From Escherichia phage vB_EcoM_PHB05, in sequence record NC_052652.1: a stretch of DNA of 64,000 bases; one strand, given 5' to 3'. Below are positions 1,462-13,877 of the stretch, piece by piece. The translations under genes were made by a program, and so were the position numbers. The notes beneath the pieces are model-generated. The model was not told the DNA's origin. It was given only the letters and a program-made list of their open reading frames with translations, and ran no database searches. The first letter of the stretch is position 1. The number at the start of each line of letters is the position of its first letter.

Positions 1462-2442
1462 ATGGCAAAGCCACAATACTACCCTGACTGGGCGACACAA
1501 ACAGTAACCCTCCCAGGAACGGGAAACACAAACAAGATTAGACCAAAAGAAACCATCCGTAATGTCGGTATGGACTTTGGTCAGATTATGACTTGTGAAG
1601 AAATGAACTGGATCTTAAACAATATTGGGTCTTGGATTCGCTATATGCAAGATGAATTCTTCCCAACATTGCCTACTACATATCTTCCTATAGTCGGTAC
1701 TAAAATTACAATGGCAGGTGATGCTACAGGTGAAGTTACATGGAACGGTAATGCTGCTGTAACATTGTCTATTCAAGTCGTAGATAACAGCCATAATCAC
1801 TTATCAGCTAACATTACAGACGCAACATCAAACCAAGTTGTAGGGAATGTCCTTGTTAAGCGTGATAATGGTGGTGCTATCTATGCAGGTGATATTTACA
1901 CTTGTGGTACAGGTGCTACAGATCCTGCAACATTATTTTTTAGAAACTATAACGGACAAACAGTAGGCAATATGTCTTCTGAACCAGGTGCAGGTGGTCA
2001 ACTCTATATTTATAGAATAAATCCATCTACTGGAGGAACATCTTGTGGAGTTCGTTTGTATGATGCAGGTTATGTTTTAATAGACAATCCTCGTTCTAAT
2101 TCTGGTCAAGACACTGGCAATGGTAATGCTCTTGTAAGATTAGATTATCTTAACTCAAGACTAAACTCATTGCAAAGTACATTGCAAAATAATATTAACA
2201 ACGTTAATAGCAACTTGCAAGGCCAAATTAATAACATTAACAATAGAGTTTCTTCTGTTGTGTCTTCTATCCGTCTAGGTACACGTATTAAAGCTGGTGT
2301 ATCTGAATCTCCTTTCTATGCTGGTCACGTGATCACAGGCTGGGGTTTTGGTGATAAGAAAGAACTTCGTGGTGCTTGGTATTGGTCTGCTCCGCTACAA
2401 TATTACATTAATGGTAGGTGGATAACAGTAACCAACGTTTAG
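1462..2442 (+). CDS. Tail fibre protein, 326 aa
   Basis: Gly/Asn/Thr-rich, Asn/Gln-rich coiled segment (LNSRLNSLQSTLQNNINNVNSNLQGQINNINN); immediately followed by a tail-fibre assembly chaperone. Confidence 0.5.
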   Translation: MAKPQYYPDWATQTVTLPGTGNTNKIRPKETIRNVGMDFGQIMTCEEMNWILNNIGSWIRYMQDEFFPTLPTTYLPIVGTKITMAGDATGEVTWNGNAAVTLSIQVVDNSHNHLSANITDATSNQVVGNVLVKRDNGGAIYAGDIYTCGTGATDPATLFFRNYNGQTVGNMSSEPGAGGQLYIYRINPSTGGTSCGVRLYDAGYVLIDNPRSNSGQDTGNGNALVRLDYLNSRLNSLQSTLQNNINNVNSNLQGQINNINNRVSSVVSSIRLGTRIKAGVSESPFYAGHVITGWGFGDKKELRGAWYWSAPLQYYINGRWITVTNV

Positions 2443-3015: not shown

Positions 3016-3357
3016 ATGGAGCTAACAGAAGTATGGGATATCGCTAAAGAGGCGATTATCCCTCTTATTGGTGTAATCTGGGTGGTCTTCAAACAGAAGA
3101 TAGATGATATAGCAAGTGATTTGGATAAAATGGAAGACAAATACCGTGAACTAGAAAAGAAGTTGGTGTTTGTTGAATCCACTTATGCTACCAAAGCAGA
3201 ACTTGCTCAAATGCTTAACCAGATCAACTCTACATTAATGGCAAATAATACTGCCTTAGAACAGAAAATTGAAAAAATAATGGATTTAAAAAATGCTCCT
3301 GTTCAATTAATGCTAGAGGAGATTACGAAGCGCACACAAAGTAAGGACAAAAATTAA
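3016..3357 (+). CDS. Hypothetical small protein with N-terminal hydrophobic helix and coiled coil, 113 aa
   Basis: IIPLIGVIWVVF hydrophobic segment then charged helical region; ATG overlaps next gene start (TAATG at 3357). Confidence 0.35.
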   Translation: MELTEVWDIAKEAIIPLIGVIWVVFKQKIDDIASDLDKMEDKYRELEKKLVFVESTYATKAELAQMLNQINSTLMANNTALEQKIEKIMDLKNAPVQLMLEEITKRTQSKDKN

Positions 3358-5771
3358 TGGCGAATTTTCCAACATATCCTGCTACGACACTAGAACAAGG
3401 TGTTGATCTGGTTATATTCTCGTCTAACCAGATGCATGATGTTATTAACGGGGATGCTACAGCAACTGTAGAAACCGAAACAGGTTTAATACCTACACTG
3501 CGTAAAGCACTTGTTGATAACTTCTTCTTTAAGAGTCCTGTTGCTTGGTCAGCAGGATCAACTGAAACTGTATTTAACCAGTTACGTTATTTTGAAAACG
3601 GCATCTTGAGTGGGTACTACTATGCCCCATCTGCCACTACTGCGAACCCTGTACCTATGCAGGGTACACCTGTAGGAGACAGTAACTGGACTCTGTATGC
3701 TCTTAAAACTGAACAGTTAGCTTCAGATGTGTATCCTTGGTATTTTAAAGGTGCTACAGGGTATGAGACAGAAATCAGTCCTCCTTATATCTTTGATAAT
3801 GCTATTGTCACCATTAACGGTGTAATTCAGATTCAGGGTGAAGCATTTACTATCAAAGATAGTAAAATTATTCTGGCAGAACCATTAGGTTTAGATCCGT
3901 CTACTGGTCTACCTAACAAATTGTTTGCTTTTATTGGTAAAACAACAGCCTCTACTTCTTACGTAGAGAAAAACCTTTTGTCATCTACCACTGGTGCAGC
4001 AATGGTTGGTCTTCCATCTGGAGGCAATCTGTTACAAGCTCAATACTTTGTAACGCCTGAGCAGTTTGGTGCAATTGGTGATGGAGTTACCGATGATACT
4101 CAAGCAATTCTAAAAACCATTACTTTCGCTAACACGAATAACATTCAAGTACGTGCAGATAAGAATTATAGATTCACAAGCTCAATTGCTATGTCTGGTA
4201 TTCGTTGGTATGGTGGTACATTCACTGGTAACGGTGGAACAATGATTTCTACTGTGTCCTGTTGGATTGAAAACGTTCGCTTTGAAAAATGTTATGTTAA
4301 GATGTTAGGTGGTGATTGCCGATTCTATCGTAATATCTTCTCCAACGCAACATCTACAGCAGCATTCTTAATGCAAGCAATGACAAGTGAAGGTACGTTG
4401 GACTTCAGTTACAACGAGATGTATGGTTGTAAATATGCGATCCTGCAACAAGGTACTGGAGAAGTAATGACCTATGGGCGTTACTCTAACAACTACATTC
4501 ACGATATCAAAGGTGATGCTATTGAACTTAACGTAGTTCAAAGACACTACACTGAAGGTTTGATCATCGAGAATAACCACATTGCTAACGTAGATGCTTC
4601 TGGACAAGGTGCAAACTGGGGTATTGGTATTGGTGTAGCAGGTAGTGGCCCATATGGTGTTGATGCTCCTGATTCACAATATGTACGTAACTTCAGTATC
4701 GTTGGAAATAGAGTTTACAATTGCCGTCAATGTCTACACGTTGAAATGGGTAAAAACTTCACAATACGTGATAACGAAGTTTATCCTAACACAGCAGTTT
4801 CAACAGGTACAGGTTTAACTACTTGTGGTGTTGCATTATACGGATGCCAAGACTTTGAAGTTGATGGTTTAACTGGTTATCTGCTTAATGATCCGTCTGT
4901 TTCAACACGCATGGTCTTTATTGACTGGGGTGTTAACGGTGGAAGATATGCGGGGCCACCAATTAACTTTACAATTAAGAATTTGGATATTCCAGAATCT
5001 TCGATTGAGATTGCAACGGCTGGATCAGACGCCTGGGAAAACTCTACAATTGTTAGTAACATCAATTGTAATGATTTTAAATGGCGTGGGCTACCATCTA
5101 GCTCTACTTTTAATAATATTCGTTGCCGTAGTATTGACTTTATTGGTCAACACGGAAGCGGAGAAGGAAGTGGTGGCGGTTTCTATGCTCGCAGCCAATT
5201 CACTTATATGAAGTGGGTAGGATGTACAGCACTTAGCGGAGATGAAACAACAGTTTCTTTTGCTAAAATCTACACGGATCGTTGCGATCAGGTTGGAAAT
5301 AACTTTGGTGTTCCAACTGCTGTTGATGGTACAGGTCATCGTGGGCCAGTCTTAACCACTATTTCTGAACAATATTTTACAGATTATGATGAATTCCCAG
5401 GTGGGCGTGACTTCCCTACTGGAACAGTTATTCATTGTGCAAGCGGTAAAAAACACGTTGTTACAGTAGGTGGTGCTTTCTTTAGTAATAAAGAGAAAAT
5501 AAAAGCAACTGTTACAGGTCAAACCTATCTACAGTCTAATGCTTTAAACTGGGCTAGTAATGGCTACGCTAAAGCGGCAGGTACTAAGATTGTTATTCCA
5601 GGTGCAGGAGCAAATGGTGGCGATCTTGTGACAACTATAGCACGTGCTACATATGTGACAAATAGTTTGTACACAATAGATATTGCAGATCCAATTGTAA
5701 CACCTACAGCAGAGAATACACAAATTAAAGCTCTGAACCCTGTTACTTTTGTTACTGTCAATAATGCTTAA
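3357..5771 (+). CDS. Tailspike / receptor-binding protein with pectate-lyase-like right-handed beta-helix (putative polysaccharide depolymerase), 804 aa
   Basis: Motif QFGAIGDGVTDDTQAI characteristic of the pectate-lyase superfamily N-cap; repeated N/G/T-rich strands typical of a beta-helix. Confidence 0.6.
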   Translation: MANFPTYPATTLEQGVDLVIFSSNQMHDVINGDATATVETETGLIPTLRKALVDNFFFKSPVAWSAGSTETVFNQLRYFENGILSGYYYAPSATTANPVPMQGTPVGDSNWTLYALKTEQLASDVYPWYFKGATGYETEISPPYIFDNAIVTINGVIQIQGEAFTIKDSKIILAEPLGLDPSTGLPNKLFAFIGKTTASTSYVEKNLLSSTTGAAMVGLPSGGNLLQAQYFVTPEQFGAIGDGVTDDTQAILKTITFANTNNIQVRADKNYRFTSSIAMSGIRWYGGTFTGNGGTMISTVSCWIENVRFEKCYVKMLGGDCRFYRNIFSNATSTAAFLMQAMTSEGTLDFSYNEMYGCKYAILQQGTGEVMTYGRYSNNYIHDIKGDAIELNVVQRHYTEGLIIENNHIANVDASGQGANWGIGIGVAGSGPYGVDAPDSQYVRNFSIVGNRVYNCRQCLHVEMGKNFTIRDNEVYPNTAVSTGTGLTTCGVALYGCQDFEVDGLTGYLLNDPSVSTRMVFIDWGVNGGRYAGPPINFTIKNLDIPESSIEIATAGSDAWENSTIVSNINCNDFKWRGLPSSSTFNNIRCRSIDFIGQHGSGEGSGGGFYARSQFTYMKWVGCTALSGDETTVSFAKIYTDRCDQVGNNFGVPTAVDGTGHRGPVLTTISEQYFTDYDEFPGGRDFPTGTVIHCASGKKHVVTVGGAFFSNKEKIKATVTGQTYLQSNALNWASNGYAKAAGTKIVIPGAGANGGDLVTTIARATYVTNSLYTIDIADPIVTPTAENTQIKALNPVTFVTVNNA

Positions 5772-5774
5772 TTA

Positions 5775-5796
5775 AAAGGGGCGAAAGCCCCTTTAT
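5775..5796 (+). terminator. Rho-independent terminator hairpin (GGGGCGAAAGCCCC, T-run)
   Basis: GC stem with GAAA-type loop followed by TTTAT directly after the stop of the 804-aa gene. Confidence 0.6.
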
Positions 5797-5811
5797 AAAA
5801 GGAGTAGTAAA

Positions 5812-7782
5812 GTGATTTTAACACGTCCAAATAGTGCCATTGCAGACATGGTAGAGTCTCGCTATAGAAAGCGTAGAAGTTTTGCAAGTGGTTTTACCTT
5901 AAGAGATGCTCGTGAAGCATTGCTCTTTGAAGCTGACGGTAACTACTATCAGTGGAAAGGTTCTCTACCTAAAGTTGTACCTGCTAACTCTACTCCTACA
6001 TCCACTGGAGGGATTTCAGATACAGCTTGGAAAAATGTGGGTAATGCAGATGACATTGCTCAAATAGAATCAGAATTAGATGCTATTGAAGCTGAAATTG
6101 AAGATCTTAGAGAATCCATCCCAGAAGCTGGTAAATCAGCTTACCAGATTGCCGTAGACAATGGTTTCCAAGGTACTGAGACACAGTGGTTGGCTTCTTT
6201 AAAAGGTGATCCAGGTGCTCCATTAAAGCTATTAGGGACACTATCTAATACCAACCAATTACCTACAAGTGGAAACAATGCAGGGGATGCATGGATTGTA
6301 GGCGAGGATATGTATGCTTGGGATGGTACTGCTTGGAGAAAAGTAAACTCACAGGGGCCAGAAGGTAAATCTGCTTATGAAGTATGGCTTGCAGCAGGAA
6401 ATGAAGGTACAGAACTAGATTATCTTGCTTCAATTAAAGGTGATAAAGGGGAGCCTGGCCCAGAGGGGCCACAAGGTGTGCCAGGTAACAATGCTAATGG
6501 TTTTGATTACCAAGGCGCAGCTAATTCCGTTTCAGATCTTCCTTCTGCATCTCATGGAAACACATCTCAAGCATGGAGTGTTGGTACATATCTATACGTG
6601 TCAAACGGTGTAGAATGGATCAATATGGGCGCTATAGTGGGGCCAAAAGGAGATAAAGGCGACAAAGGAGATAAGGGTAACACTGGTGATTCAGCTTATC
6701 AAGTCTGGTTAAATGCTGGTAACGTTGGTACTATTGACGAATATATTGCCTCTCTGAAAGGAGAAAAAGGTGATAAGGGAGACAAGGGTGATCAAGGTGC
6801 ACAGGGTATACAAGGCTTGACGGGGCCAACTGGTGCAGGGTTGACCATTATTGACATTCTGACTAGCACTTCTGAACTGCCACAAACTGGGGAAGATGGT
6901 GATGGTTATCTGATCAATAATGAACTTTGGGTCTGGTTGCAAGGAGCCACAGAGTGGACAAATGTTGGTCGTTTAGCTGGTACTCCAATCACTGCAAAAG
7001 GACACGTTGCGTTTGCAAGTGCGCTTCCTCCTACAGCCAATTACGGTGATGCTTATCTGACGGAAGATACAGGTCATCTTTACATTTACACCTATAATGA
7101 ACAAACTCAAACTGCTGAATATGTAGATATGGGTAGTTTGAAAGGTGATAAGGGTGAAAAAGGTGAGAAAGGTGACGCTGGTACTAACGGTACAGACGGT
7201 GCAACTTGGATTGTTAAAACAACAGATCCAATCTCTAGTGATGGTAAACAAGGTGATTATGCCTTTAATATCTCCACTGGCGAAGTGTTCTTAAAAACAT
7301 CTGCAACTGTCTGGACTTCTCAAGGTACACTACCTAGTATCACAGATGCACCTAGTGATGGTAAGACTTATGCTCGTAAAGATGGGGCATGGGAAGAACT
7401 CACTAATTCTGTAGATGGTCAAGATATAGTTCCAACAAAAGTAACAACTAATTTTATAGAGGTTACAGCATATACCAATAATTCTGTTACAGGGGACTGG
7501 ACACCTCCAGGAACACATAACATGAATGTGTTGAATCTTACTGGTAACGCTACTATAAAAGCATGGCCTGGTGTCGAAGATAGTACAAAACCTAAACCAT
7601 TCTCTGCAATAGTTTATCTTATCCAAGATGCCACTGGAGGTCGTACTGTTACTTTAGATCCATCTTACAAAGTAATTGGTTCCAGTGATATTAATACAGA
7701 TCCTAACGGAGTAACAATACTACAACTAACATATTGTGGTGTTGGCGATTACGTGGATGCTATTGTTGCTAAACGCACATAA
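5812..7782 (+). CDS. Tail fibre protein with collagen-like Gly-X-Y repeats, 656 aa (GTG start)
   Basis: Four collagen-like runs, e.g. GDKGEPGPEGPQGVPG, GPKGDKGDKGDKGNTGD, GEKGDKGDKGDQGAQGIQGLTGPTGAG, GDKGEKGEKGDAGTNGTDG; RBS AAAGGAG 8 nt upstream. Confidence 0.6.
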   Translation: MILTRPNSAIADMVESRYRKRRSFASGFTLRDAREALLFEADGNYYQWKGSLPKVVPANSTPTSTGGISDTAWKNVGNADDIAQIESELDAIEAEIEDLRESIPEAGKSAYQIAVDNGFQGTETQWLASLKGDPGAPLKLLGTLSNTNQLPTSGNNAGDAWIVGEDMYAWDGTAWRKVNSQGPEGKSAYEVWLAAGNEGTELDYLASIKGDKGEPGPEGPQGVPGNNANGFDYQGAANSVSDLPSASHGNTSQAWSVGTYLYVSNGVEWINMGAIVGPKGDKGDKGDKGNTGDSAYQVWLNAGNVGTIDEYIASLKGEKGDKGDKGDQGAQGIQGLTGPTGAGLTIIDILTSTSELPQTGEDGDGYLINNELWVWLQGATEWTNVGRLAGTPITAKGHVAFASALPPTANYGDAYLTEDTGHLYIYTYNEQTQTAEYVDMGSLKGDKGEKGEKGDAGTNGTDGATWIVKTTDPISSDGKQGDYAFNISTGEVFLKTSATVWTSQGTLPSITDAPSDGKTYARKDGAWEELTNSVDGQDIVPTKVTTNFIEVTAYTNNSVTGDWTPPGTHNMNVLNLTGNATIKAWPGVEDSTKPKPFSAIVYLIQDATGGRTVTLDPSYKVIGSSDINTDPNGVTILQLTYCGVGDYVDAIVAKRT

Positions 7783-7785
7783 TCA

Positions 7786-7807
7786 AAGCCCCTTCGGGGG
7801 CTTATTA
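7786..7807 (+). terminator. Rho-independent terminator hairpin (AAAGCCCC TTCG GGGGCTT)
   Basis: UUCG-type tetraloop hairpin plus T-rich tail after the stop at 7782. Confidence 0.6.
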
Positions 7808-7821
7808 TTTAAGGAGATTAA

Positions 7822-10641
7822 ATGTATCCTATTCCTTTATTTATGTCAACAACATCAGCTTCAGTAGTAACAGCTACATCTATAACCACTTCCTCTATTG
7901 GTATTGCAATAGTTGGTAGTAAAAAGCAACTGACATACACAGTTTCACCAGAAGATGGTGCGTTATTTGATATAGCTTTTTCATCTTCAGATAATACCAA
8001 AATGGTTATAGATAATAATGGTATGATGGAGTTTGTTGCTGAAGGCGGTTTTGATGCAATAATGACAGCTAAAAATAATTTAGGTGCTGTCTTAACTGAT
8101 CAATCTGGTGGCTATGCTTCAGAATTAAGTGTGTACACTGAAAGTCTGTCTGCTATGGATGCAGGAACTACTCAACAATTGGTTGCTACAATCAGTCCAG
8201 AAGGTGCTAAAGACCTTCCAGACATGGTGATTACGTACACCACAACAGATCCAGAAGTAGCTACTGTAAGTCCTACAGGGTTAATAACTGCTCTTAAAGA
8301 TGGTAGTTGCCGTATAGGTTGTACTGCAACTTATCAAGGAACAGTGGTGGCCTCTGATAGTTCTTATTTAGGTGTTAATGCTGTTCCTGTTATTTCTAAT
8401 GTAACAGCCGTGGCAAACAGCTATGGAGACATTCGTGTTGCTTGGGATGTAGCTGATCCGCTAGATGGTGATACTTATACTGTAGAAGTATTAGATTTAA
8501 GTAATAACAGTGTCCAGTGGACTACAACAACCACGAATACTCATGCTTACTTTGATATCTCTGACTCTATTCCTCTTTATGGGTTTGCTCCAACATACCT
8601 TAAAATTAGCGTTAAGAGCACCAAAGCAGCACCCGTTATCTTTAATAACTCAATAGCTACAGATGATTCGTTCATTAAAGAAGTTATTGTCTTTGCTGGA
8701 CAAGATAACGTAAATGCACACTTTACAGAACTATCTGGTGCAAATAAAGCAGTAATGAGTAGCACAACAACCCGTAATGCATATGCTACGCAACGTGGTT
8801 TAGCAAATGCTGAAGTTCTTCCGTTAAATGCAGCTTCTGGATCATCAGCAGCAGATAAATATGCAGATGATAAAGCCGGAACAGGTACACCAGACAACTA
8901 CTGGTATGATCTGGATAACGCAGCAGATGGGCCATGCTTAACTAATTTTATCACTAAAGTCACACCTTATGCAAGTAAGGTTAAAGCAATTATTTGGGGA
9001 CAAGGTGAAAATGATGCTGTATCAGCATCTTCGACTGTTGCAGGTAGATACAGTAACACTACACGTTACCATGATGCTACGATAGCTATCTTTGATAAGA
9101 TGCGTACAATAGTTCCTGCTTCTCAAGCAAAAATTGTTTGGCAGATCCTAGGACGTTCTTATCTATATGGTGTAGAAGTTAATGGTGTGGATTGGCAGAA
9201 ATACAGAAATGTACAAAGAACCATCTCTACAGCACGTGACGATGTTATCATTGGTTCTTGGGTGGATGGTGCTGAACGCTACAGTGGTTATGTTTATGAA
9301 GAAGGTATTGATGGTCGTATCCATTATATTTCTTCTGTATACCAAACAGCAGCTACAAAACTTGCTAAATCAGCAGCAGACGGTACAGACTTAACATCAA
9401 CATCACCTGTTTGGGTTGATATGGCTGTTCCAACTGGAGCAACAGCTATTTCCCAAGCTAATCAAGATACAATTTTAGCATGGGATGCTCAAGGTTATAG
9501 TAAACACTACTTCCGTAATATTAACGTCTTAACAGCATCTGTATTAACTGAACAAACGCTTAATACGAACAGTTATACGTTTACCTATGCAGATCAAGTA
9601 GAACAATATGGTTTTGCAGCAGGTACTACGATATTTGATGTTGCATATTATGACGAAGCAAATGATGTGTTATCTCCTTTAGTACGTTTTAATGTTAGCG
9701 TTACAGCAGGAAAAGTAGAAGATAAACCTGTCGTGATGGACTATGATTTGACGCAAGAAACTCTTCCATCAGATGTTAAGGTTAATGGTGGGAACTCTTT
9801 TGCTCGTGCCTCTGGAGATATACTTGTAGCCACTAACACCTTGGTTGCTCCGTTGGAGTATGTTGGTACTACCCCTGTAGGTAGACGTGTAACAGCTAAC
9901 ACAGCTACACAAATTTTTGTCAACAACGCCTTAACAAGTGCAAGCCCGTGGGTAAAGACCAACTTAACTGTTGCAGCTTCATCTGATAAATCTCCGGCTG
10001 GAACTACTGCTAATGTATTCAAATTAACTCCGACTACAACCTCTGGTAGTCATATCTTAACTGCAACATATACTAACGCGTACAACATATCTGCCGGACG
10101 TAACTGGTCTGCCTCTGTTTTCTTGAAAGCGAACGGGATTACTAAGGCCAAACTAAGATTAAAAGCAGGAACTGAAGTTAATGAGGGTACTTTTGATTTA
10201 GCAGCAGGTACATTCACAGGAAGTGAAGCTAATATTATATCTATGGGCAACGGTTGGTATCGTGCTATTCTGCATAAAACAGGGATAGCCAAACAGTCCT
10301 CCATAAGTTTTGAAATAATTGCCTTGGATGCAACTGGTGCGGAGATTTTCGCTGGAGATGGTACTAGTAACCTTGCAGTTTGGTTGCCACAGCTTGAAGG
10401 TGCTTCTACAGGAGAAACATCAAAAGCTGGATCGCCTTATGTCTGCACATATCCTGGAAATTTAGGAGGAGTATCCTTCACTATACCAAGGAACGGACAT
10501 ACTGGTGTGGATGTTTACTATTCCAACGGAGACGTTGTTCGTGATGTATTCTCTGGCACAGCATCTACTTGGACAATAAACTACTCCAGCTTGTACGATT
10601 GGGGATCAGTCTTTATTACAGGTTTGAAATATTACGACTAA
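7822..10641 (+). CDS. Large tail fibre / receptor-binding protein with Ig-like (BIG2-type) segment and SGNH/sialate-O-acetylesterase-like carbohydrate esterase region, 939 aa
   Basis: BIG2-like stretch (ATVSPTGLITALKDGSCRIGCTATYQG); esterase-like blocks VFAGQDNVNAHF and AIIWGQGENDA resembling GQSN and W-QGE blocks of O-acetylesterases. Confidence 0.5.
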   Translation: MYPIPLFMSTTSASVVTATSITTSSIGIAIVGSKKQLTYTVSPEDGALFDIAFSSSDNTKMVIDNNGMMEFVAEGGFDAIMTAKNNLGAVLTDQSGGYASELSVYTESLSAMDAGTTQQLVATISPEGAKDLPDMVITYTTTDPEVATVSPTGLITALKDGSCRIGCTATYQGTVVASDSSYLGVNAVPVISNVTAVANSYGDIRVAWDVADPLDGDTYTVEVLDLSNNSVQWTTTTTNTHAYFDISDSIPLYGFAPTYLKISVKSTKAAPVIFNNSIATDDSFIKEVIVFAGQDNVNAHFTELSGANKAVMSSTTTRNAYATQRGLANAEVLPLNAASGSSAADKYADDKAGTGTPDNYWYDLDNAADGPCLTNFITKVTPYASKVKAIIWGQGENDAVSASSTVAGRYSNTTRYHDATIAIFDKMRTIVPASQAKIVWQILGRSYLYGVEVNGVDWQKYRNVQRTISTARDDVIIGSWVDGAERYSGYVYEEGIDGRIHYISSVYQTAATKLAKSAADGTDLTSTSPVWVDMAVPTGATAISQANQDTILAWDAQGYSKHYFRNINVLTASVLTEQTLNTNSYTFTYADQVEQYGFAAGTTIFDVAYYDEANDVLSPLVRFNVSVTAGKVEDKPVVMDYDLTQETLPSDVKVNGGNSFARASGDILVATNTLVAPLEYVGTTPVGRRVTANTATQIFVNNALTSASPWVKTNLTVAASSDKSPAGTTANVFKLTPTTTSGSHILTATYTNAYNISAGRNWSASVFLKANGITKAKLRLKAGTEVNEGTFDLAAGTFTGSEANIISMGNGWYRAILHKTGIAKQSSISFEIIALDATGAEIFAGDGTSNLAVWLPQLEGASTGETSKAGSPYVCTYPGNLGGVSFTIPRNGHTGVDVYYSNGDVVRDVFSGTASTWTINYSSLYDWGSVFITGLKYYD

Positions 10642-10643
10642 TA

Positions 10644-10676
10644 AAAAAGGAGCCATTAGGCTCCTTTTCTTTTATC
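10644..10676. terminator. Bidirectional terminator between convergent gene blocks (AAAAAAGGAGCC ATT AGGCTCCTTTTCTTTT)
   Basis: Perfect 8-bp stem flanked by A-run upstream and T-run downstream; lies between the + strand stop at 10641 and the - strand stop at 10677. Confidence 0.65.
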
Positions 10677-11108
10677 TTAATCAGTGAAAATTACGCTCAC
10701 ATCTTCTTTAGAGAAGAGTTTATGATCTTCACCTTTTGTCTCAAGAGTTTCATACAGGTTAAGAAGTTCTGAAACATCTTTCTCTACCAGTTTCTTCAAT
10801 GTTGCAATTTTCTGTTTGCGACTCTTAATACGTTCAGCTACGACCTTACGTTGGTATCCAGCAGTACGATAACCTGAGAAAGTTACACCAGTAAGACTTG
10901 CAGTTACAGGATCGTAGTGACGTTCAATCTGAAATTTATTAAAAGGTACAGCGTCATCACGAATAATCTTACCGCCATTACTTACTTGACGAAGACCAGT
11001 AACTTGTTCCAGTCGTGCCATAGAAATCTTTGGAGACAGACCAGAGTCCAGGTTCATACCGTTGTTAATCAGTGCTTTCAGGGTGATTTTGCTGTTCAGT
11101 GTACTCAT
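10677..11108 (-). CDS. Hypothetical protein, 143 aa (start may be the internal Met at 11057)
   Basis: Track ORF; overlaps the upstream methyltransferase stop by 44 nt unless the internal ATG is used. Confidence 0.4.
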   Translation of the reverse strand: MSTLNSKITLKALINNGMNLDSGLSPKISMARLEQVTGLRQVSNGGKIIRDDAVPFNKFQIERHYDPVTASLTGVTFSGYRTAGYQRKVVAERIKSRKQKIATLKKLVEKDVSELLNLYETLETKGEDHKLFSKEDVSVIFTD

Positions 11109-11796
11109 TTAGTCGTTCCTCCGCTTGCTTAAAAATATTTACATCGGCTTCACAGCCTAAGTATTCTCTACCTGTTAAAAGTGCCGCAACTTGTGTTGTT
11201 GCACTTCCAGAGAAGAAGTCTAAGACTACATCTCCTTCGTTGGTATGTATATTAATAAGGTCACAAAACAAAGTCAAGTGTTTTTGTGTTGGATGAAAAC
11301 GATCTGCTCCTTGATAGATAGGATACTCAAACACACCCTTATGGTAGGAAGCATTGAAGGTTGGCTTCGAACCTTTAACACAAACAATAGCCATCTCTTT
11401 AGCGTTACTAAGGTAGTTAACACCACTATTGATGGGTACAGGGTTTGTTTTAATCCATTCAATAGTACGGAACATACGAAAACCAAGCGGTTCAAGGATT
11501 TCACGTAGCTCCTGGATCTTCCAGATATCATACCAAACTATGCAAGTACCACCTTTTCTAAGCACCCTATAGGCTTCTTTGAATACTTCTTTAAAGTAAG
11601 GAATATCTACAACGTCCCAGTCACCAAAGTTGTAAGATACACGGAATCTATCCGTATTTTTTCCAGTAGGCTCTCCAGATTGAAAATTTGTGTCACGAGA
11701 AATAGCATATGGTGGGTCAGTAAGAATCAAATCTACACTATTGCTTTCGAGGGTTTGCAGGTAGTTTAATGCAGTGTTGTTTACAAATTCGCTCAT
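11065..11796 (-). CDS. DNA N6-adenine methyltransferase (amino-methyltransferase, motif IV before motif I), 243 aa
   Basis: Catalytic motif LILTDPPYAI (DPPY) near N-terminus and AdoMet motif VLDFFSGSATT near C-terminus. Confidence 0.7.
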   Translation of the reverse strand: MSEFVNNTALNYLQTLESNSVDLILTDPPYAISRDTNFQSGEPTGKNTDRFRVSYNFGDWDVVDIPYFKEVFKEAYRVLRKGGTCIVWYDIWKIQELREILEPLGFRMFRTIEWIKTNPVPINSGVNYLSNAKEMAIVCVKGSKPTFNASYHKGVFEYPIYQGADRFHPTQKHLTLFCDLINIHTNEGDVVLDFFSGSATTQVAALLTGREYLGCEADVNIFKQAEERLNEYTEQQNHPESTD

Positions 11797-11810
11797 TATA
11801 TCTCCTTCAA

Positions 11811-11835
11811 AGAAAAGGAGCCGTTAGGCTCCTTA
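11811..11835 (-). terminator. Terminator hairpin (AAGGAGCC GTTA GGCTCCTT)
   Basis: 8-bp GC-rich stem; on the - strand it is followed by a T-rich tract after the stop at 11857. Confidence 0.5.
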
Positions 11836-11856
11836 TATTCACACAATATTTAACTA

Positions 11857-12804
11857 TTAGAAACAGTGCAGGAAGTTTCGACCATATTGCAAACCAATAG
11901 GAGCAAACGGGATATCATCATCGAAATCTTGAACAACAGGTTCTGGTTCTTTCGGTGCTGGCTCTTTCTTCTCTACTTTTTTAGTTTCTTTCTTAACTTC
12001 TTGTACTGGGGTAGACATTCCACGGATAGCCGCAGCTACTTTATCAGACAAAGCAAGAACTTCACGAGCAGCTTCAATAATCTCTTCTGCCGTTACAGTT
12101 TTACCTGTATGATCACGACAAGCGTTAAGAATTGCGTGTCCAACTGAAGCACCAAGATCATAGTCAGTCACATCAACACCACGATCTTTAGCAATTTCAG
12201 CTTTCAGAGTAACAGTTGCAGATTGTACCACACCAGCCAAATCGAAAGCATCACCTTTCACACCAGCACGTAGAAGCTCCAGAGCGCCGTTTACAGCGTG
12301 TCCTGTTTCAATCCCTACGGTATCACGTTTTTTGTAGTTAGGCTTGTTACCGTCATTATTAGATGGCTTATTTCCACCTTTTGAAGAGGATTGCGCTTGC
12401 TGAACACCTTCTGTTGAAAGAATAGTGATTTTACCTTTAGAGGAGTTGTAGTATGTTTTGCCATTCCATTCAGAAGGTTTAACATCCATAGTTAGTTCTA
12501 CACCTTTTTCGATAGTAACCCACTTATCACCATCTTTAACTTGCAGGTTTTCATGTTCTGGGTGCAGTTTAACTTCACCTAAGCTAACCCAAACACCTTT
12601 ATCATCAGCACCAGCACCTTTCTCTTTAATAAGCAGAGATGCTTTGTGAGTTGATTCAATTTTCTTATCTGGCTGACCTGCAACCTTAATATAAGAAACT
12701 TTCATTTCATCAAACTTATCTAGTTTGACATATTCGACAATACCTTCAGCCCAGAATGCTTCTTTTTTAGTACGACGGTCGATTTCAGAATTAATTACTG
12801 GCAT
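11857..12804 (-). CDS. Putative DNA-binding / replication accessory protein carrying an SSB-like acidic motif (DFDDDIPF), 315 aa
   Basis: Motif DFDDDIPF matches the bacterial SSB C-terminal tail but here is followed by 15 further residues; Lys/Glu-rich linker; no clear OB-fold seen by eye. Confidence 0.35.
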   Translation of the reverse strand: MPVINSEIDRRTKKEAFWAEGIVEYVKLDKFDEMKVSYIKVAGQPDKKIESTHKASLLIKEKGAGADDKGVWVSLGEVKLHPEHENLQVKDGDKWVTIEKGVELTMDVKPSEWNGKTYYNSSKGKITILSTEGVQQAQSSSKGGNKPSNNDGNKPNYKKRDTVGIETGHAVNGALELLRAGVKGDAFDLAGVVQSATVTLKAEIAKDRGVDVTDYDLGASVGHAILNACRDHTGKTVTAEEIIEAAREVLALSDKVAAAIRGMSTPVQEVKKETKKVEKKEPAPKEPEPVVQDFDDDIPFAPIGLQYGRNFLHCF

Positions 12805-12820
12805 AAATTCTCCTCTATAA

Positions 12821-13219
12821 TTACATTACTTTAACACAAAACTCTCGTAAAAGAGTAGCGTCAGTTTCTTCCAACAGGTATTTACCAAGACCAATACCAA
12901 ATCCTATTTCACCACTTTCAAAATGGAGAATTTGTATCTTTTCTCCACCAAGGTTAATTACTTTTGCTTTTCCAGGATTGTCCAAAACATCTCGTATTGT
13001 GTCCTGTAGTAGCATAAGTTCACGTTTTGTGATAGTGGTTTCAGATATCTCTTTGTCTTCTACCCGCACTGTTAAACGGTTGTATCCACCAAAGAGACAT
13101 AGTATTTGAATAAAAAAGGTATTATCTTGAGGTTCAACATCTTTTTTAGTTAGTTCAAGACGATTAGTTTCTCTACTATAGAACGTCTCGACTAAGATTT
13201 TAGAACGATTGTCTGTCAT
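12821..13219 (-). CDS. Hypothetical protein, 132 aa
   Basis: Track ORF in co-directional packed array; no motif recognised. Confidence 0.4.
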   Translation of the reverse strand: MTDNRSKILVETFYSRETNRLELTKKDVEPQDNTFFIQILCLFGGYNRLTVRVEDKEISETTITKRELMLLQDTIRDVLDNPGKAKVINLGGEKIQILHFESGEIGFGIGLGKYLLEETDATLLREFCVKVM

Positions 13220-13262
13220 TCAAGTTCTCATAATAACACATAATTGTAAGGTTTGTCAACAC

Positions 13263-13877
13263 TTAAATCTTAAATTCTTCGTTGTTAAACGAATCCAGTG
13301 TACGTACTTCTGGTTCTTTGGGAATGAAAACGTCTTTTACAAAGCGGAACATAGGGAAACGTTCTGCCATTTTACGGACGTGTGCTTCTTTACCTGTGTA
13401 TCGGTGATTAATAGTGCAAATATTAGTCTTCAATGCAAAGTCAAAATCTGGATGATATACATAATTTTGACCATCCCAGTAACACAGGCAAATAGCTACG
13501 TCAAAGTTCCATACGATTTCACTGCGTACACCCTCTTCCATGATCATAAAGTTAAACTTAAGATCTTTATAGTATGCTTCAAATACCCATTTCAAATGTG
13601 GTAGTTCGGCATAAGTGTGTTCTGTTTGCTTAGTAAGTTGTTTAACATTACGTGCACCAACACCCAACATCAAAAATTTCTCTACCAGTACGGTTGTATT
13701 GTGGTTAGGCATACGCAAGTAAATGTCAATATCTTGCGCAGGTGTTTCTAATCGCCAGTCGCGTACAGCGCCGCCAGCTACAATTGCAAACGGATCTACC
13801 AGTTGGCACATACGTAATACTTCTAAAGCGCGTACTTTTTGATCTTCAATATTCATATTTTCTCCTATCGTGTCCAC
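13263..13877 (-). CDS. Nucleotidyltransferase (Pol-beta superfamily, CCA-adding / poly(A) polymerase head-domain-like), 204 aa
   Basis: Signature GGAVRD followed by DIDIYL (GGxVRD...DxD) typical of the tRNA nucleotidyltransferase/PAP head domain; protein is much shorter than full-length CCA enzymes. Confidence 0.5.
   Translation of the reverse strand: MDTIGENMNIEDQKVRALEVLRMCQLVDPFAIVAGGAVRDWRLETPAQDIDIYLRMPNHNTTVLVEKFLMLGVGARNVKQLTKQTEHTYAELPHLKWVFEAYYKDLKFNFMIMEEGVRSEIVWNFDVAICLCYWDGQNYVYHPDFDFALKTNICTINHRYTGKEAHVRKMAERFPMFRFVKDVFIPKEPEVRTLDSFNNEEFKI

What the first reader, a model, noticed from the sequence alone, without database searches (positions are those of the whole stretch)
3357..10641. 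Three distinct receptor-binding or enzymatic fibre genes in series (beta-helix depolymerase-like, collagen-like, esterase-like)
Besides the proximal fibre and chaperone, the phage encodes a pectate-lyase-type tailspike, a fibre with four collagen Gly-X-Y tracts, and a 939-aa fibre with Ig-like and O-acetylesterase-like blocks (GQDN, WGQGEND). Multiple enzymatically distinct receptor-binding proteins imply recognition of several surface glycans such as capsule or O-antigen, with deacetylation as one step.
Basis: partly seen in the sequence, partly recalled or inferred. Interest (0 to 1): 0.45.

Follow-up and report, generated by a model that had tools for sequence, protein, structure and literature searches.

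The report
Known phi92-type tail fibre gene trio
These three genes are the known colanic-acid-cutting tailspike, collagen-like fibre and Ig/esterase-fold fibre of phi92-like E. coli phages; the one twist is that the esterase-fold domain lacks its catalytic serine, so it probably binds sugars rather than deacetylating them.

The parts
1462..2442 (+). Short tail fibre (phi92 gp147 orthologue, Mu GpS-like).
   Evidence: 99.4% identical to phi92 gp147. PHROG 4465 tail fibre, E 4e-109. gp147 was assigned to fiber III in the phi92 cryo-EM map (PMC13450770).
2455..3006 (+). Tail-fibre assembly chaperone (phi92 gp148 orthologue)
   Evidence: Pfam Caudo_TAP, 44.2 bits against a cut-off of 22.1. PHROG 136, E 3e-44.
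3016..3357 (+). Small protein with a hydrophobic N-terminal stretch (IIPLIGVIWVVF) and a charged, helix-like remainder (phi92 gp149 orthologue, annotated 'lipoprotein')
   Evidence: PHROG 15210, E 2e-70, with weak Rz-like spanin similarity. The sequence contains no cysteine, so the lipoprotein label is doubtful.
3357..5771 (+). ORF1: colanidase tailspike (phi92 gp150 orthologue), 804 aa
   Evidence: 98.5% identical to phi92 gp150. PDB 6E0V/6E0W cover aa 180-804. PHROG 6117 'colanic acid degradation', E 9e-270.
3390..3734 (+). ORF1 N-terminal attachment region (aa 12-126)
   Evidence: Matches aa 15-130 of the phiTE tail fibre chain 9cuy_g, E 1e-17. In phiTE the N-terminal residues 14-171 of the long tail fibre are the part modelled in the baseplate map (PMC11972413). 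I did not confirm that chain g is that long tail fibre.
4428..5021 (+). ORF1 beta-helix core with WcaM-like segment (aa 358-555)
   Evidence: NCBIfam TIGR04004 WcaM (colanic acid cluster protein), E 5.7e-29. This is a partial match, far below the equivalog cut-off.
5466..5732 (+). ORF1 C-terminal TSP_Ig-like domain (aa 704-792)
   Evidence: Pfam PF20745, 51.7 bits against a cut-off of 27.9.
5778..5800 (+). GC-rich hairpin (GGGGC-GAAA-GCCCC) followed by TTTATAAAA, after ORF1
   Evidence: Read directly from the sequence. Relatives annotate terminators in this region (H10 and H13).
5812..7782 (+). ORF2: collagen-like tail fibre (phi92 gp151 orthologue), 656 aa
   Evidence: 98.3% identical to phi92 gp151. 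PHROG 15437, full-length match at 1378 bits.
5842..6042 (+). ORF2 Tail_spike_N adaptor domain (aa 11-77)
   Evidence: Pfam PF18668, 75 bits against a cut-off of 25. The same stretch matches the N-terminal parts of CBA120 TSP3/TSP4, G7C gp63.1 and Sf11 gp13 chains in the PDB.
6439..6492 (+). Gly-X-Y tract 1 (aa 210-227)
6640..6693 (+). Gly-X-Y tract 2 (aa 277-294)
6760..6840 (+). Gly-X-Y tract 3 (aa 317-343)
   Evidence: Pfam Collagen best stretch at aa 317-341
7144..7206 (+). Gly-X-Y tract 4 (aa 445-465)
7357..7401 (+). Foldon-like motif DGKTYARKDGAWEEL (aa 516-530)
   Evidence: Pfam Fibritin_C at aa 505-532, E 0.0011 and 19.6 bits, just below the cut-off of 21. Sequence read.
7396..7779 (+). 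ORF2 C-terminal distal domain (aa 529-656)
   Evidence: Matches the C-terminus of PHROG 4549 tail fibre (743-869 of 869), E 7e-39. The predicted gp151 structure resembles the Pa223 head-spike protein (PMC13450770).
7786..7803 (+). Terminator-like hairpin after ORF2
7822..10641 (+). ORF3: mosaic Ig-like / SGNH-fold / distal-domain fibre or adhesin, 939 aa
   Evidence: 97.0% identical to PaulScherrer bas60_0037 'lateral tail fiber protein'. PHROG 32204 and 11922 'tail protein'.
8158..8331 (+). ORF3 Big_2 Ig-like domain (aa 113-170). The PHROG Ig-domain families match aa 10-199 as a whole.
   Evidence: Pfam Big_2, 51.9 bits against a cut-off of 22.8. PHROG 215 'structural protein with Ig domain' covers aa 10-199.
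8395..9651 (+). Cassette collinear with N4 gp65 aa 619-1059 (beta-sandwich, SGNH-like domain, beta-sandwich); ORF3 aa 192-610
   Evidence: BLASTP 23% identity over 461 columns, E 2e-13. tblastn gives the same coordinates.
8674..9417 (+). SGNH/SASA-fold domain (aa 285-532)
8698..8709 (+). Block I motif GQDN (aa 293-296), with Asp295 at the position of the family's nucleophile Ser
   Evidence: Family consensus is GQSN, and 28 of 33 aligned members have Ser. The Ser of GQSNM is the nucleophile in SASA-type esterases (PMC12313940).
8995..9015 (+). WGQGEND block (aa 392-398), the SASA block III equivalent
   Evidence: W, Q, G, E and D are at least 90% conserved in alignment A1. This stretch gives the only direct Pfam SASA hit of the window protein (17 bits, below the cut-off of 24.8).
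9322..9324 (+). His501 (in IDGRIHY), the block V histidine equivalent
   Evidence: H217 of A1 is at least 90% conserved.
9715..10638 (+). ORF3 C-terminal distal domain (aa 632-939). It is allelic among relatives and can be absent.
   Evidence: phmmer: Sf11 gp17 C-terminal appendage (9occ_C) E 2e-19, and RcGTA head-spike fibre Rcc01080 (6tb9) E 1e-13. NCBIfam GTA_spike_fiber, 70.1 bits against a cut-off of 36, at aa 694-863. Allele and absence pattern.
10645..10668 (+). Terminator-like hairpin closing the + strand structural module
   Evidence: 10-pair stem followed by a T-rich tail

Best explanation
The region is the downstream half of the multivalent adsorption apparatus of a phi92-like (Justusliebigvirus) E. 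coli myophage.

ORF1 (shown by near-identity to a solved and assayed protein). It is a trimeric beta-helix tailspike that hydrolyses colanic acid, the enterobacterial slime polysaccharide, so the virion can tunnel through it. I infer that its N-terminal ~180 aa dock it to the baseplate.

ORF2 (inferred from domain anatomy). It is a trimeric, non-enzymatic fibre. A Tail_spike_N adaptor domain plugs it into the branched RBP complex. A coiled coil and three SAY...LKG repeats, alternating with four short collagen triple-helix tracts, form a shaft. A foldon-like hairpin clamps the trimer, and a ~125-aa distal knob binds an unidentified receptor.

ORF3 (fold shown, function inferred). It is a mosaic adhesin. 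It begins with Ig-like Big_2 domains. Next comes a beta-sandwich/SGNH-fold/beta-sandwich cassette that shares ancestry with the middle of the N4 receptor-binding sheath protein gp65. It ends with a swappable distal domain related to the RcGTA head-spike fibre. The SGNH-fold domain has lost its nucleophile serine (GQSN to GQDN), so it most likely acts as a non-catalytic glycan-binding or spacer module. Specificity most likely lies in the variable C-terminal domain. The protein is accessory: it is broken in phi92, annotated as two CDSs in ALITA, and lacks the distal domain in many relatives.
For: The region is 97-99% identical to more than 50 Justusliebigvirus genomes. ORF1 is 98.5% identical to phi92 gp150 and matches PDB 6E0V. 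It has a WcaM-like segment. Colanic acid hydrolysis by gp150 is published (Xu 2025, cited in PMC13450770).

ORF2: Tail_spike_N at 75 bits, Collagen above its cut-off, a near-threshold Fibritin_C hit, and no enzyme family.

Ser to Asp: 28 of 33 family members have GQSN. The window, ALITA, PaulScherrer and phi92 have GQDN. Av-05 has GGDN and has also lost the block III Gln.

C-terminal domain: homologous to Sf11 gp17 and Rcc01080. About 19 records hold it at >=95% identity and about 39 at 60-80%. It is cleanly absent in phi92, Eryne, PD06, muut and others. The phi92 orthologue carries a 218-nt deletion and a frameshift. ALITA annotates the gene as two CDSs.
Against: No activity, binding or virion-location data exist for ORF2 or ORF3. 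phi92 cryo-EM could not place gp150 or gp151 in the fibre densities, and fiber II remains unassigned (PMC13450770).

His501, the Q/G/E/D block and most of the SGNH core are retained. Asp295 is conserved between lineages only 44% identical. This could mean a functional, conceivably catalytic, role for the pocket rather than decay.

ORF3 has no recognisable tail-attachment domain, so 'fibre' is an assumption taken from synteny and annotation.

I could not inspect model coordinates to check the active-site geometry.
Confidence: 0.75

Rival explanations
1. One reading: ORF3 is an active O-acetylesterase tail fibre that deacetylates a surface glycan as a step in adsorption, like the SGNH tail fibre gp63.1 of phage G7C.
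Against: The nucleophile Ser of block I is Asp in every Justusliebigvirus orthologue checked and in Av-05. I know of no SGNH esterase that uses Asp as its nucleophile (own knowledge). Av-05 has additionally lost the block III Gln (WSLGEQD). The window protein fails Pfam SASA's gathering score (17 against 24.8 bits). The best sequence and Foldseek match, N4 gp65, is a receptor-binding structural protein, and its collinear second copy lacks both the Ser and the His.
Confidence: 0.15
2. ORF3 is not a tail fibre. It is an Ig-domain decoration or adhesin protein on the capsid, neck or tail tube (Hoc-like or head-spike-like) that promotes loose adherence to glycans or mucus.
For: Its N-terminal Big_2 domains match PHROGs of 'structural protein with Ig domain (head and packaging)' and of major tail proteins. 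phi92 gp152 was annotated as a lambda gpV-like fold. Its C-terminal domain is homologous to the RcGTA HEAD spike fibre. It has no Tail_spike_N or other baseplate-docking domain, unlike ORF1 and ORF2. It is dispensable in phi92. It is not among the fibre candidates considered in the phi92 cryo-EM study.
Against: It is the last gene of the tail-fibre cluster, and this synteny is conserved in Av-05 and, with a different Ig-like protein, in rV5. Its central cassette is homologous to a tail-borne RBP, N4 gp65. The C-terminal domain also occurs on the tail-tip DTP of siphophage Sf11.
Confidence: 0.15
3. ORF3 is the Justusliebigvirus counterpart of N4 gp65. Its gp65-like cassette recognises the NGR glycan or its exporter NfrA, which would explain why phi92-like phages depend on nfrB and wecB on E. 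coli K-12.
For: Collinear homology to N4 gp65. Bas60-62, which all carry the long ORF3, depend on NGR (PMC8669472; PMC11990801). Eryne has the short ORF3 and is reported to use NGR only poorly (PMC11984140).
Against: The rV5 tail-fibre locus has no detectable copy of the cassette, although Vequintavirus phages also depend on NGR (PMC8669472). The published explanation is a different shared protein, a glycan deacetylase tailspike, which lies outside this window. No homologue of the 417-aa N4 protein gp64 or of the appendage gp66 was found in the window. Short-ORF3 phages such as muut and outra were isolated on K-12 MG1655. Identity to gp65 is only 23%.
Confidence: 0.1

Closest known systems
Phage phi92 gp150 colanidase tailspike (PDB 6E0V/6E0W)
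   Same: ORF1 is 98.5% identical over all 804 aa. It has the same beta-helix, the same C-terminal Ig-like domain and the same genomic position.
   Different: Only scattered substitutions. Nothing of functional note was seen.
Phage phi92 gp151 'potential tail fibre' (BASEL annotation: lateral tail fiber protein with type I collagen domain)
   Same: ORF2 is 98.3% identical, with the same Tail_spike_N adaptor and collagen tracts.
   Different: 3 aa longer. The receptor and the position in the virion are unknown for both.
PaulScherrer bas60_0037, BME3 939-aa 'tail fiber', and phi92 gp152+gp153
   Same: ORF3 is 97% identical to bas60_0037. The BME3 paper already notes a 939-aa CDS shared by alia, Paula, inny and PaulScherrer but not phi92 (PMC12210895).
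   Different: In phi92 the gene is split by a 218-nt deletion and a frameshift, and it lacks the ~310-aa distal domain. Eryne, PD06 and muut have an intact 628-aa short form.
Phage N4 gp65, non-contractile sheath and receptor-binding protein (PDB 9LC0, 9YF4)
   Same: The beta-sandwich/SGNH-like/beta-sandwich cassette is collinear (ORF3 aa 192-610 against gp65 aa 619-1059). The family profile hits gp65 at E 3e-62, and Foldseek TM is 0.80. In both, the SGNH-like copy lacks an intact catalytic set.
   Different: 23% identity. gp65 has two tandem copies inside a 10-domain, 1382-aa protein that pairs with gp64 and wraps a podophage tail tube. ORF3 has one copy, different termini and no gp64 partner gene in the window, and it sits in a myophage.
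SASA-type SGNH carbohydrate esterases (Pfam PF03629; 1ZMB, 2APJ, E. coli NanS 3PT5, XAC1771 7KMM; CE6/CE20)
   Different: The block I nucleophile Ser is Asp. The Pfam score is below the gathering threshold. ORF3 works like a member of this fold but should not be filed as an active member.
RcGTA head-spike fibre Rcc01080 (PDB 6TB9) and the Sf11 distal tail protein gp17 C-terminal appendage (PDB 9OCC)
   Same: ORF3 aa 632-939 is homologous to both (E 1e-13 and 2e-19). NCBIfam GTA_spike_fiber is above its cut-off.
   Different: The domain is attached to entirely different scaffolds. The Sf11 appendage has no known function (PMC12724387).

Membership tests
phi92 gp150-type colanidase tailspike | Near full-length sequence identity to the crystallised beta-helix enzyme | tested here: met
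   98.5% identity over 804 aa. PDB 6E0V at 1412 bits over aa 180-804.
phi92 gp150-type colanidase tailspike | Hydrolysis of colanic acid (beta-1,4 Glc-Fuc) | not testable with these tools
   Known for phi92 gp150 (Xu et al. 2025, cited in PMC13450770). Inferred here from 98.5% identity.
Collagen triple-helix repeat protein (PF01391) | Uninterrupted Gly-X-Y runs scoring above the Pfam gathering threshold | tested here: met
   Four tracts of 6-9 triplets. 35.2 bits against a cut-off of 27.2.
Collagen triple-helix repeat protein (PF01391) | Trimeric triple-helix formation | not testable with these tools
   Supported only indirectly, by a foldon-like motif (Fibritin_C 19.6 bits, just below the cut-off of 21).
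Tail_spike_N (PF18668) branched-tailspike adaptor | N-terminal domain above the gathering score | tested here: met
   ORF2 aa 11-77, 75 bits against a cut-off of 25. The same stretch matches the N-terminal parts of CBA120 TSP3/4 and G7C gp63.1 chains.
SGNH hydrolase / SASA carbohydrate esterase (PF03629) | Three-layer alpha/beta/alpha SGNH fold | tested here: met
SGNH hydrolase / SASA carbohydrate esterase (PF03629) | Pfam gathering score | tested here: not met
   17.0 bits against 24.8 for the window domain, although 26 of 33 homologues match SASA at E <= 0.01 (best E 2.9e-15).
SGNH hydrolase / SASA carbohydrate esterase (PF03629) | Block I nucleophile serine (GQSNM) | tested here: not met
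   GQDN (Asp295). The family consensus is GQSN in 28 of 33 members. Role of the Ser: PMC12313940.
SGNH hydrolase / SASA carbohydrate esterase (PF03629) | Block III (QGE-D, oxyanion Gln) and block V histidine | tested here: met
   WGQGEND at aa 392-398 and His501 both fall in columns that are at least 90% conserved.
SGNH hydrolase / SASA carbohydrate esterase (PF03629) | Block V acid (DxxH) | tested here: inconclusive
   The query reads D-G-R-I-H, one residue longer than DxxH. Many GQSN-bearing close homologues lack the Asp altogether. The geometry could not be inspected.
SGNH hydrolase / SASA carbohydrate esterase (PF03629) | Esterase activity | not testable with these tools
N4 gp65-type receptor-binding sheath protein | Collinear homology of the beta-sandwich/SGNH-like/beta-sandwich module | tested here: met
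   BLASTP E 2e-13 over 461 columns. hhalign probability 99.5%. Profile E 3e-62.
N4 gp65-type receptor-binding sheath protein | Full 10-domain architecture with a gp64 partner subunit | tested here: not met
   Only about 420 of 1382 aa are shared. tblastn finds no gp64 or gp66 homologue in the window, PaulScherrer or phi92 loci.
N4 gp65-type receptor-binding sheath protein | Binding of NfrA or NGR | not testable with these tools
   There is only the correlative literature on NGR dependence of Bas60-62.
GTA head-spike fibre domain (NCBIfam NF048003) | Domain score above the curated cut-off | tested here: met
   70.1 bits against 36, at aa 694-863. Rcc01080 E 1e-13.
Bacterial Ig-like domain group 2 (PF02368) | Domain score above the gathering threshold | tested here: met
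   51.9 bits against 22.8, at aa 113-170.

The most novel reading that the evidence does not exclude
ORF3 is a myophage-borne derivative of the N4 gp65 receptor-binding module. Its serine-less SGNH pocket has been repurposed as a lectin for an acetylated enterobacterial glycan such as NGR, and the swappable head-spike-fibre-type distal domain tunes host range. This would make it a second, unrecognised link between Justusliebigvirus and N4 host recognition, and a natural case of an esterase converted to a binding module in a phage RBP.
Probability: 0.1. Interest if true: 0.5.

Novelty: already known. Interest (0 to 1): 0.18.

Why it matters
It adds little beyond what is published. phi92-like phages are the textbook "Swiss army knife" case of several co-expressed receptor-binding proteins, and all three genes are 97-99% identical to deposited, annotated orthologues.

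Three practical points follow.

1. The label 'tail carbohydrate esterase' on ORF3 orthologues should be treated with caution, because the nucleophile serine is missing.
2. ORF3 shares a module with the N4 receptor-binding protein gp65. It also has a distal domain that is allelic or absent across the genus, which makes it a sensible target for host-range engineering or knock-out studies.
3. The placement of gp150, gp151 and ORF3 in the phi92 virion is still unresolved, so these genes are candidates for the unassigned fiber II density.

Tried and rejected
- **Single-sequence AlphaFold2 of ORF3 aa 271-631.** It gave pLDDT 31 and was unusable. It was replaced by a 33-sequence alignment run.
- **Word-indexed homologue search with the ORF3 mid-region.** It returned only 2 near-identical fragments. 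The exhaustive representative search was needed.
- **Direct Pfam and NCBIfam scans of ORF3.** They do not call an esterase above threshold.
- **The idea that ORF3 is the 'glycan deacetylase tailspike' shared with N4 in the BASEL and NGR papers.** Rejected. No homologue of the 417-aa N4 protein gp64 or of the appendage gp66 was found in the window or in the PaulScherrer and phi92 loci. BASEL annotates ORF3 differently. That protein must lie upstream of the window.
- **Whether the gp65-like cassette tracks NGR dependence.** The rV5 tail-fibre locus has none, so the correlation fails.
- **ORF1 as a lyase.** Rejected. The published activity is hydrolysis.
- **Schwarzer et al. 2012 (PMC3457257).** It could not be read, so the virion proteomics for gp151-153 were not checked.
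- **Two further papers (PMC10698182, PMC12695924).** They added nothing on these genes.


Full report
**Identity of the window.** The region 3357-10641 matches 78 phage records by megablast, and 51 of them cover at least 80% of it at 95-99% identity. Almost all are Escherichia phages of genus Justusliebigvirus (Stephanstirmvirinae). They include EC.P2 (99.1%), SD2, BME3, alia, PaulScherrer and ALITA (taxonomy). Gene order is the same as in the type phage phi92: baseplate gp145/146, short fibre gp147, chaperone gp148, gp149, gp150, gp151, gp152/153. After that the replication module runs on the other strand.

**Check of the observation.** Three + strand ORFs occupy 3357-5771 (804 aa), 5812-7782 (656 aa, GTG start 7 nt after AAGGAG) and 7822-10641 (939 aa). 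Each is followed by a GC-rich hairpin, at 5778-5800, 7786-7803 and 10645-10668. ORF2 has four Gly-X-Y tracts at aa 210-227, 277-294, 317-343 and 445-465. About 0.003 six-triplet runs are expected by chance, and Pfam Collagen is above its threshold. ORF3 has a Big_2 domain and the motifs GQDN (aa 293) and WGQGEND (aa 392).

**ORF1.** It is 98.5% identical to phi92 gp150, and residues 180-804 match the crystallised fragment 6E0V/6E0W at 1412 bits. PHROG 6117 'colanic acid degradation' matches at E 9e-270. A 200-aa stretch of the beta-helix resembles WcaM of the colanic acid gene cluster at E 6e-29, a partial match. The C-terminus is a TSP_Ig-like domain. phi92 gp150 has been expressed and shown to hydrolyse the beta-1,4 Glc-Fuc linkage of colanic acid (Xu et al. 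2025, as cited in PMC13450770). The 'pectate-lyase-type' description is therefore right for the fold only; the enzyme is a glycoside hydrolase. Residues 12-126 resemble the N-terminus of a phiTE tail-fibre chain (9cuy_g), E 1e-17. In phiTE the N-terminal part of the long tail fibre is the part modelled in the baseplate map (PMC11972413). This suggests direct baseplate docking, but that is an inference.

**ORF2.** It is 98.3% identical to phi92 gp151. Its anatomy is as follows.
- A Tail_spike_N domain at aa 11-77, 75 bits. This is the adaptor found at the N-termini of CBA120 tailspikes, G7C gp63.1 and Sf11 gp13.
- A glutamate-rich, coiled-coil-like stretch, consistent with the coiled-coil note in the phi92 annotation.
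- Three copies of a 24-aa SAY...LKG repeat, each leading into a Gly-X-Y tract, alternating with Trp/Tyr-rich segments.
- A foldon-like DGKTYARKDGAWEEL motif (Fibritin_C E 0.001, just below threshold).
- A ~125-aa distal domain shared with other tail-fibre PHROGs.

No enzymatic family is detected. The most likely reading is a trimeric, non-catalytic fibre whose collagen tracts form part of the shaft. The phi92 cryo-EM study lists gp151 as a fibre candidate whose predicted fold resembles the Pa223 head-spike protein, but could not fit it to density.

**ORF3 fold.** Direct scans see only Big_2 (aa 113-170), a sub-threshold SASA hit around WGQGEND, and an NCBIfam GTA_spike_fiber domain at aa 694-863. 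An exhaustive HMMER search with aa 285-631 found 78 relatives. A 33-sequence alignment of the ~245-aa core (A1) gave an AlphaFold2 model with pLDDT 97.1. The earlier single-sequence attempt had failed at pLDDT 31.

**ORF3 catalytic residues.** In SASA-type esterases the nucleophile is the serine of the block I motif GQSNM (PMC12313940). In A1, 28 of 33 sequences read GQSN. The window reads GQDN, and so do ALITA, PaulScherrer and phi92. The syntenic Avunavirus Av-05 protein, 44% identical, reads GGDN and has also lost the block III Gln (WSLGEQD). His501 and the Q/G/E/D block are retained.

A defining feature of the esterase family was thus tested and not met, so I do not file ORF3 as an active esterase. 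A non-catalytic glycan-binding or spacer role is more likely. There is a precedent among the structural hits: the entry titled 'The active site of a carbohydrate esterase displays divergent catalytic and non-catalytic binding functions' (2W9X). The conservation of Asp in two divergent lineages argues that the pocket is still used for something. I cannot exclude unusual chemistry.

**ORF3 as a mosaic.**
- Residues 192-610 (beta-sandwich, SGNH-like, beta-sandwich) are collinear with N4 gp65 residues 619-1059 at E 2e-13. gp65 is the N4 non-contractile sheath and receptor-binding protein that engages NfrA (PMC13434306).
- Residues 632-939 are homologous to the unresolved C-terminal appendage of the Sf11 distal tail protein (E 2e-19) and to the RcGTA head-spike fibre (E 1e-13).
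- This distal domain behaves like a host-range cassette. About 19 phage records carry this allele at >=95% identity. About 39 carry a 60-80% allele, including phAPEC8-type phages and some Justusliebigviruses. In phi92, Eryne, PD06, muut, VEcB and others the gene stops right after the second beta-sandwich, as in the 628-aa Eryne protein that ends ...LVRFTVNVT.
- The SGNH-like domain itself occurs only in Justusliebigvirus, in Av-05-like phages and, distantly, in N4-like phages. phAPEC8-type phages share the ends of the protein but not this domain.
- In phi92 the gene is disrupted by a 218-nt deletion and a frameshift, which is why it is annotated as gp152 plus gp153. ALITA annotates it as two CDSs. 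The protein is therefore accessory, at least on laboratory hosts.

[quoted passage not shown] BASEL annotated all three genes as lateral tail fibres and stressed that it is unclear which gene forms which fibre (PMC8594841). The BME3 paper noted the 939-aa form that is absent from phi92. phi92-like phages depend on the NGR glycan on K-12 (PMC8669472, PMC11990801). This is attributed to a deacetylase tailspike shared with N4. That protein is not in this window: no homologue of the 417-aa N4 protein gp64 or of the appendage gp66 was found.

I tested whether the gp65-like cassette could explain NGR dependence instead. rV5, from the NGR-dependent Vequintavirus group, has no detectable copy in its tail-fibre locus. 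The idea stays a low-probability speculation.

**Verdict.** The finding is real, correctly located and largely correctly described, but it is an already-known system in a genome nearly identical to many deposited ones. The small new points are the Ser-to-Asp change in the SGNH-fold domain, its homology to the N4 gp65 module, and the allelic or absent distal domain. Interest is low.

Noticed in passing
window 3016-3357 (+): The gp149 orthologue is annotated 'lipoprotein' in relatives and in PHROG 15210, but the 113-aa sequence has no cysteine and so no lipobox. It has a hydrophobic N-terminal stretch and a charged, helix-like remainder, with weak Rz-like spanin similarity (E about 1e-3). The label is probably wrong.
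   Followed up: partly
L003 (phi92 NC_023693) locus 11002-12664, equivalent to window 7822-9705: The reference phage phi92 carries a broken copy of ORF3. It has a 218-nt deletion relative to the window (ORF3 nt 591-808), a further frameshift inside the SGNH-like domain, and no distal domain. Its gp152 and gp153 are fragments of one gene.
   Followed up: yes
L001 (ALITA PP359570) locus 10458-13277: ALITA's ORF3 orthologue is annotated as two CDSs ('tail carbohydrate esterase' of 720 aa and 'tail protein' of 172 aa). This implies a disruption or sequencing error inside the distal domain.
   Followed up: no
L004 (phage N4) gp64 aa 19-79 and gp65 aa 439-602: The first SGNH-like copy in N4 gp65 matches only profile positions 4-160. 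The N-terminus of the partner subunit gp64 matches positions 169-227, the C-terminal third including the His region (E 3e-5 locally, 0.014 against the PDB). This may be a fold completed in trans within the gp64-gp65 heterodimer, or it may be a chance match.
   Followed up: no
window 14489-17068 (-): By synteny with ALITA this 859-aa ORF is the DNA polymerase. It is intein-free here and in ALITA (2580 nt). The PaulScherrer gene is 3315 nt and is annotated as carrying an intein. The phi92 gene is also 3315 nt.
   Followed up: partly
17 and 52 hit lists: Records named Campylobacter phage A150/A110a, Serratia phage KKP_3264 and Klebsiella phage ZCKP1 carry these E. coli-phage genes at 95-98% identity. 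The host labels of some of these records may reflect contamination, or a genuinely very broad host range.
   Followed up: no
window 5778-5800, 7786-7803, 10645-10668: Each of the three RBP genes is a separate cassette, bounded by a GC-rich hairpin and with its own strong Shine-Dalgarno site. This layout would favour module exchange by recombination.
   Followed up: partly
window 10677-11108 and 11065-11796 (-): The first two genes of the opposite-strand module overlap by 44 nt. They are a 143-aa protein (phi92 gp154 orthologue) and a Dam-like N6-adenine methyltransferase. They converge on the ORF3 terminator hairpin.
   Followed up: no
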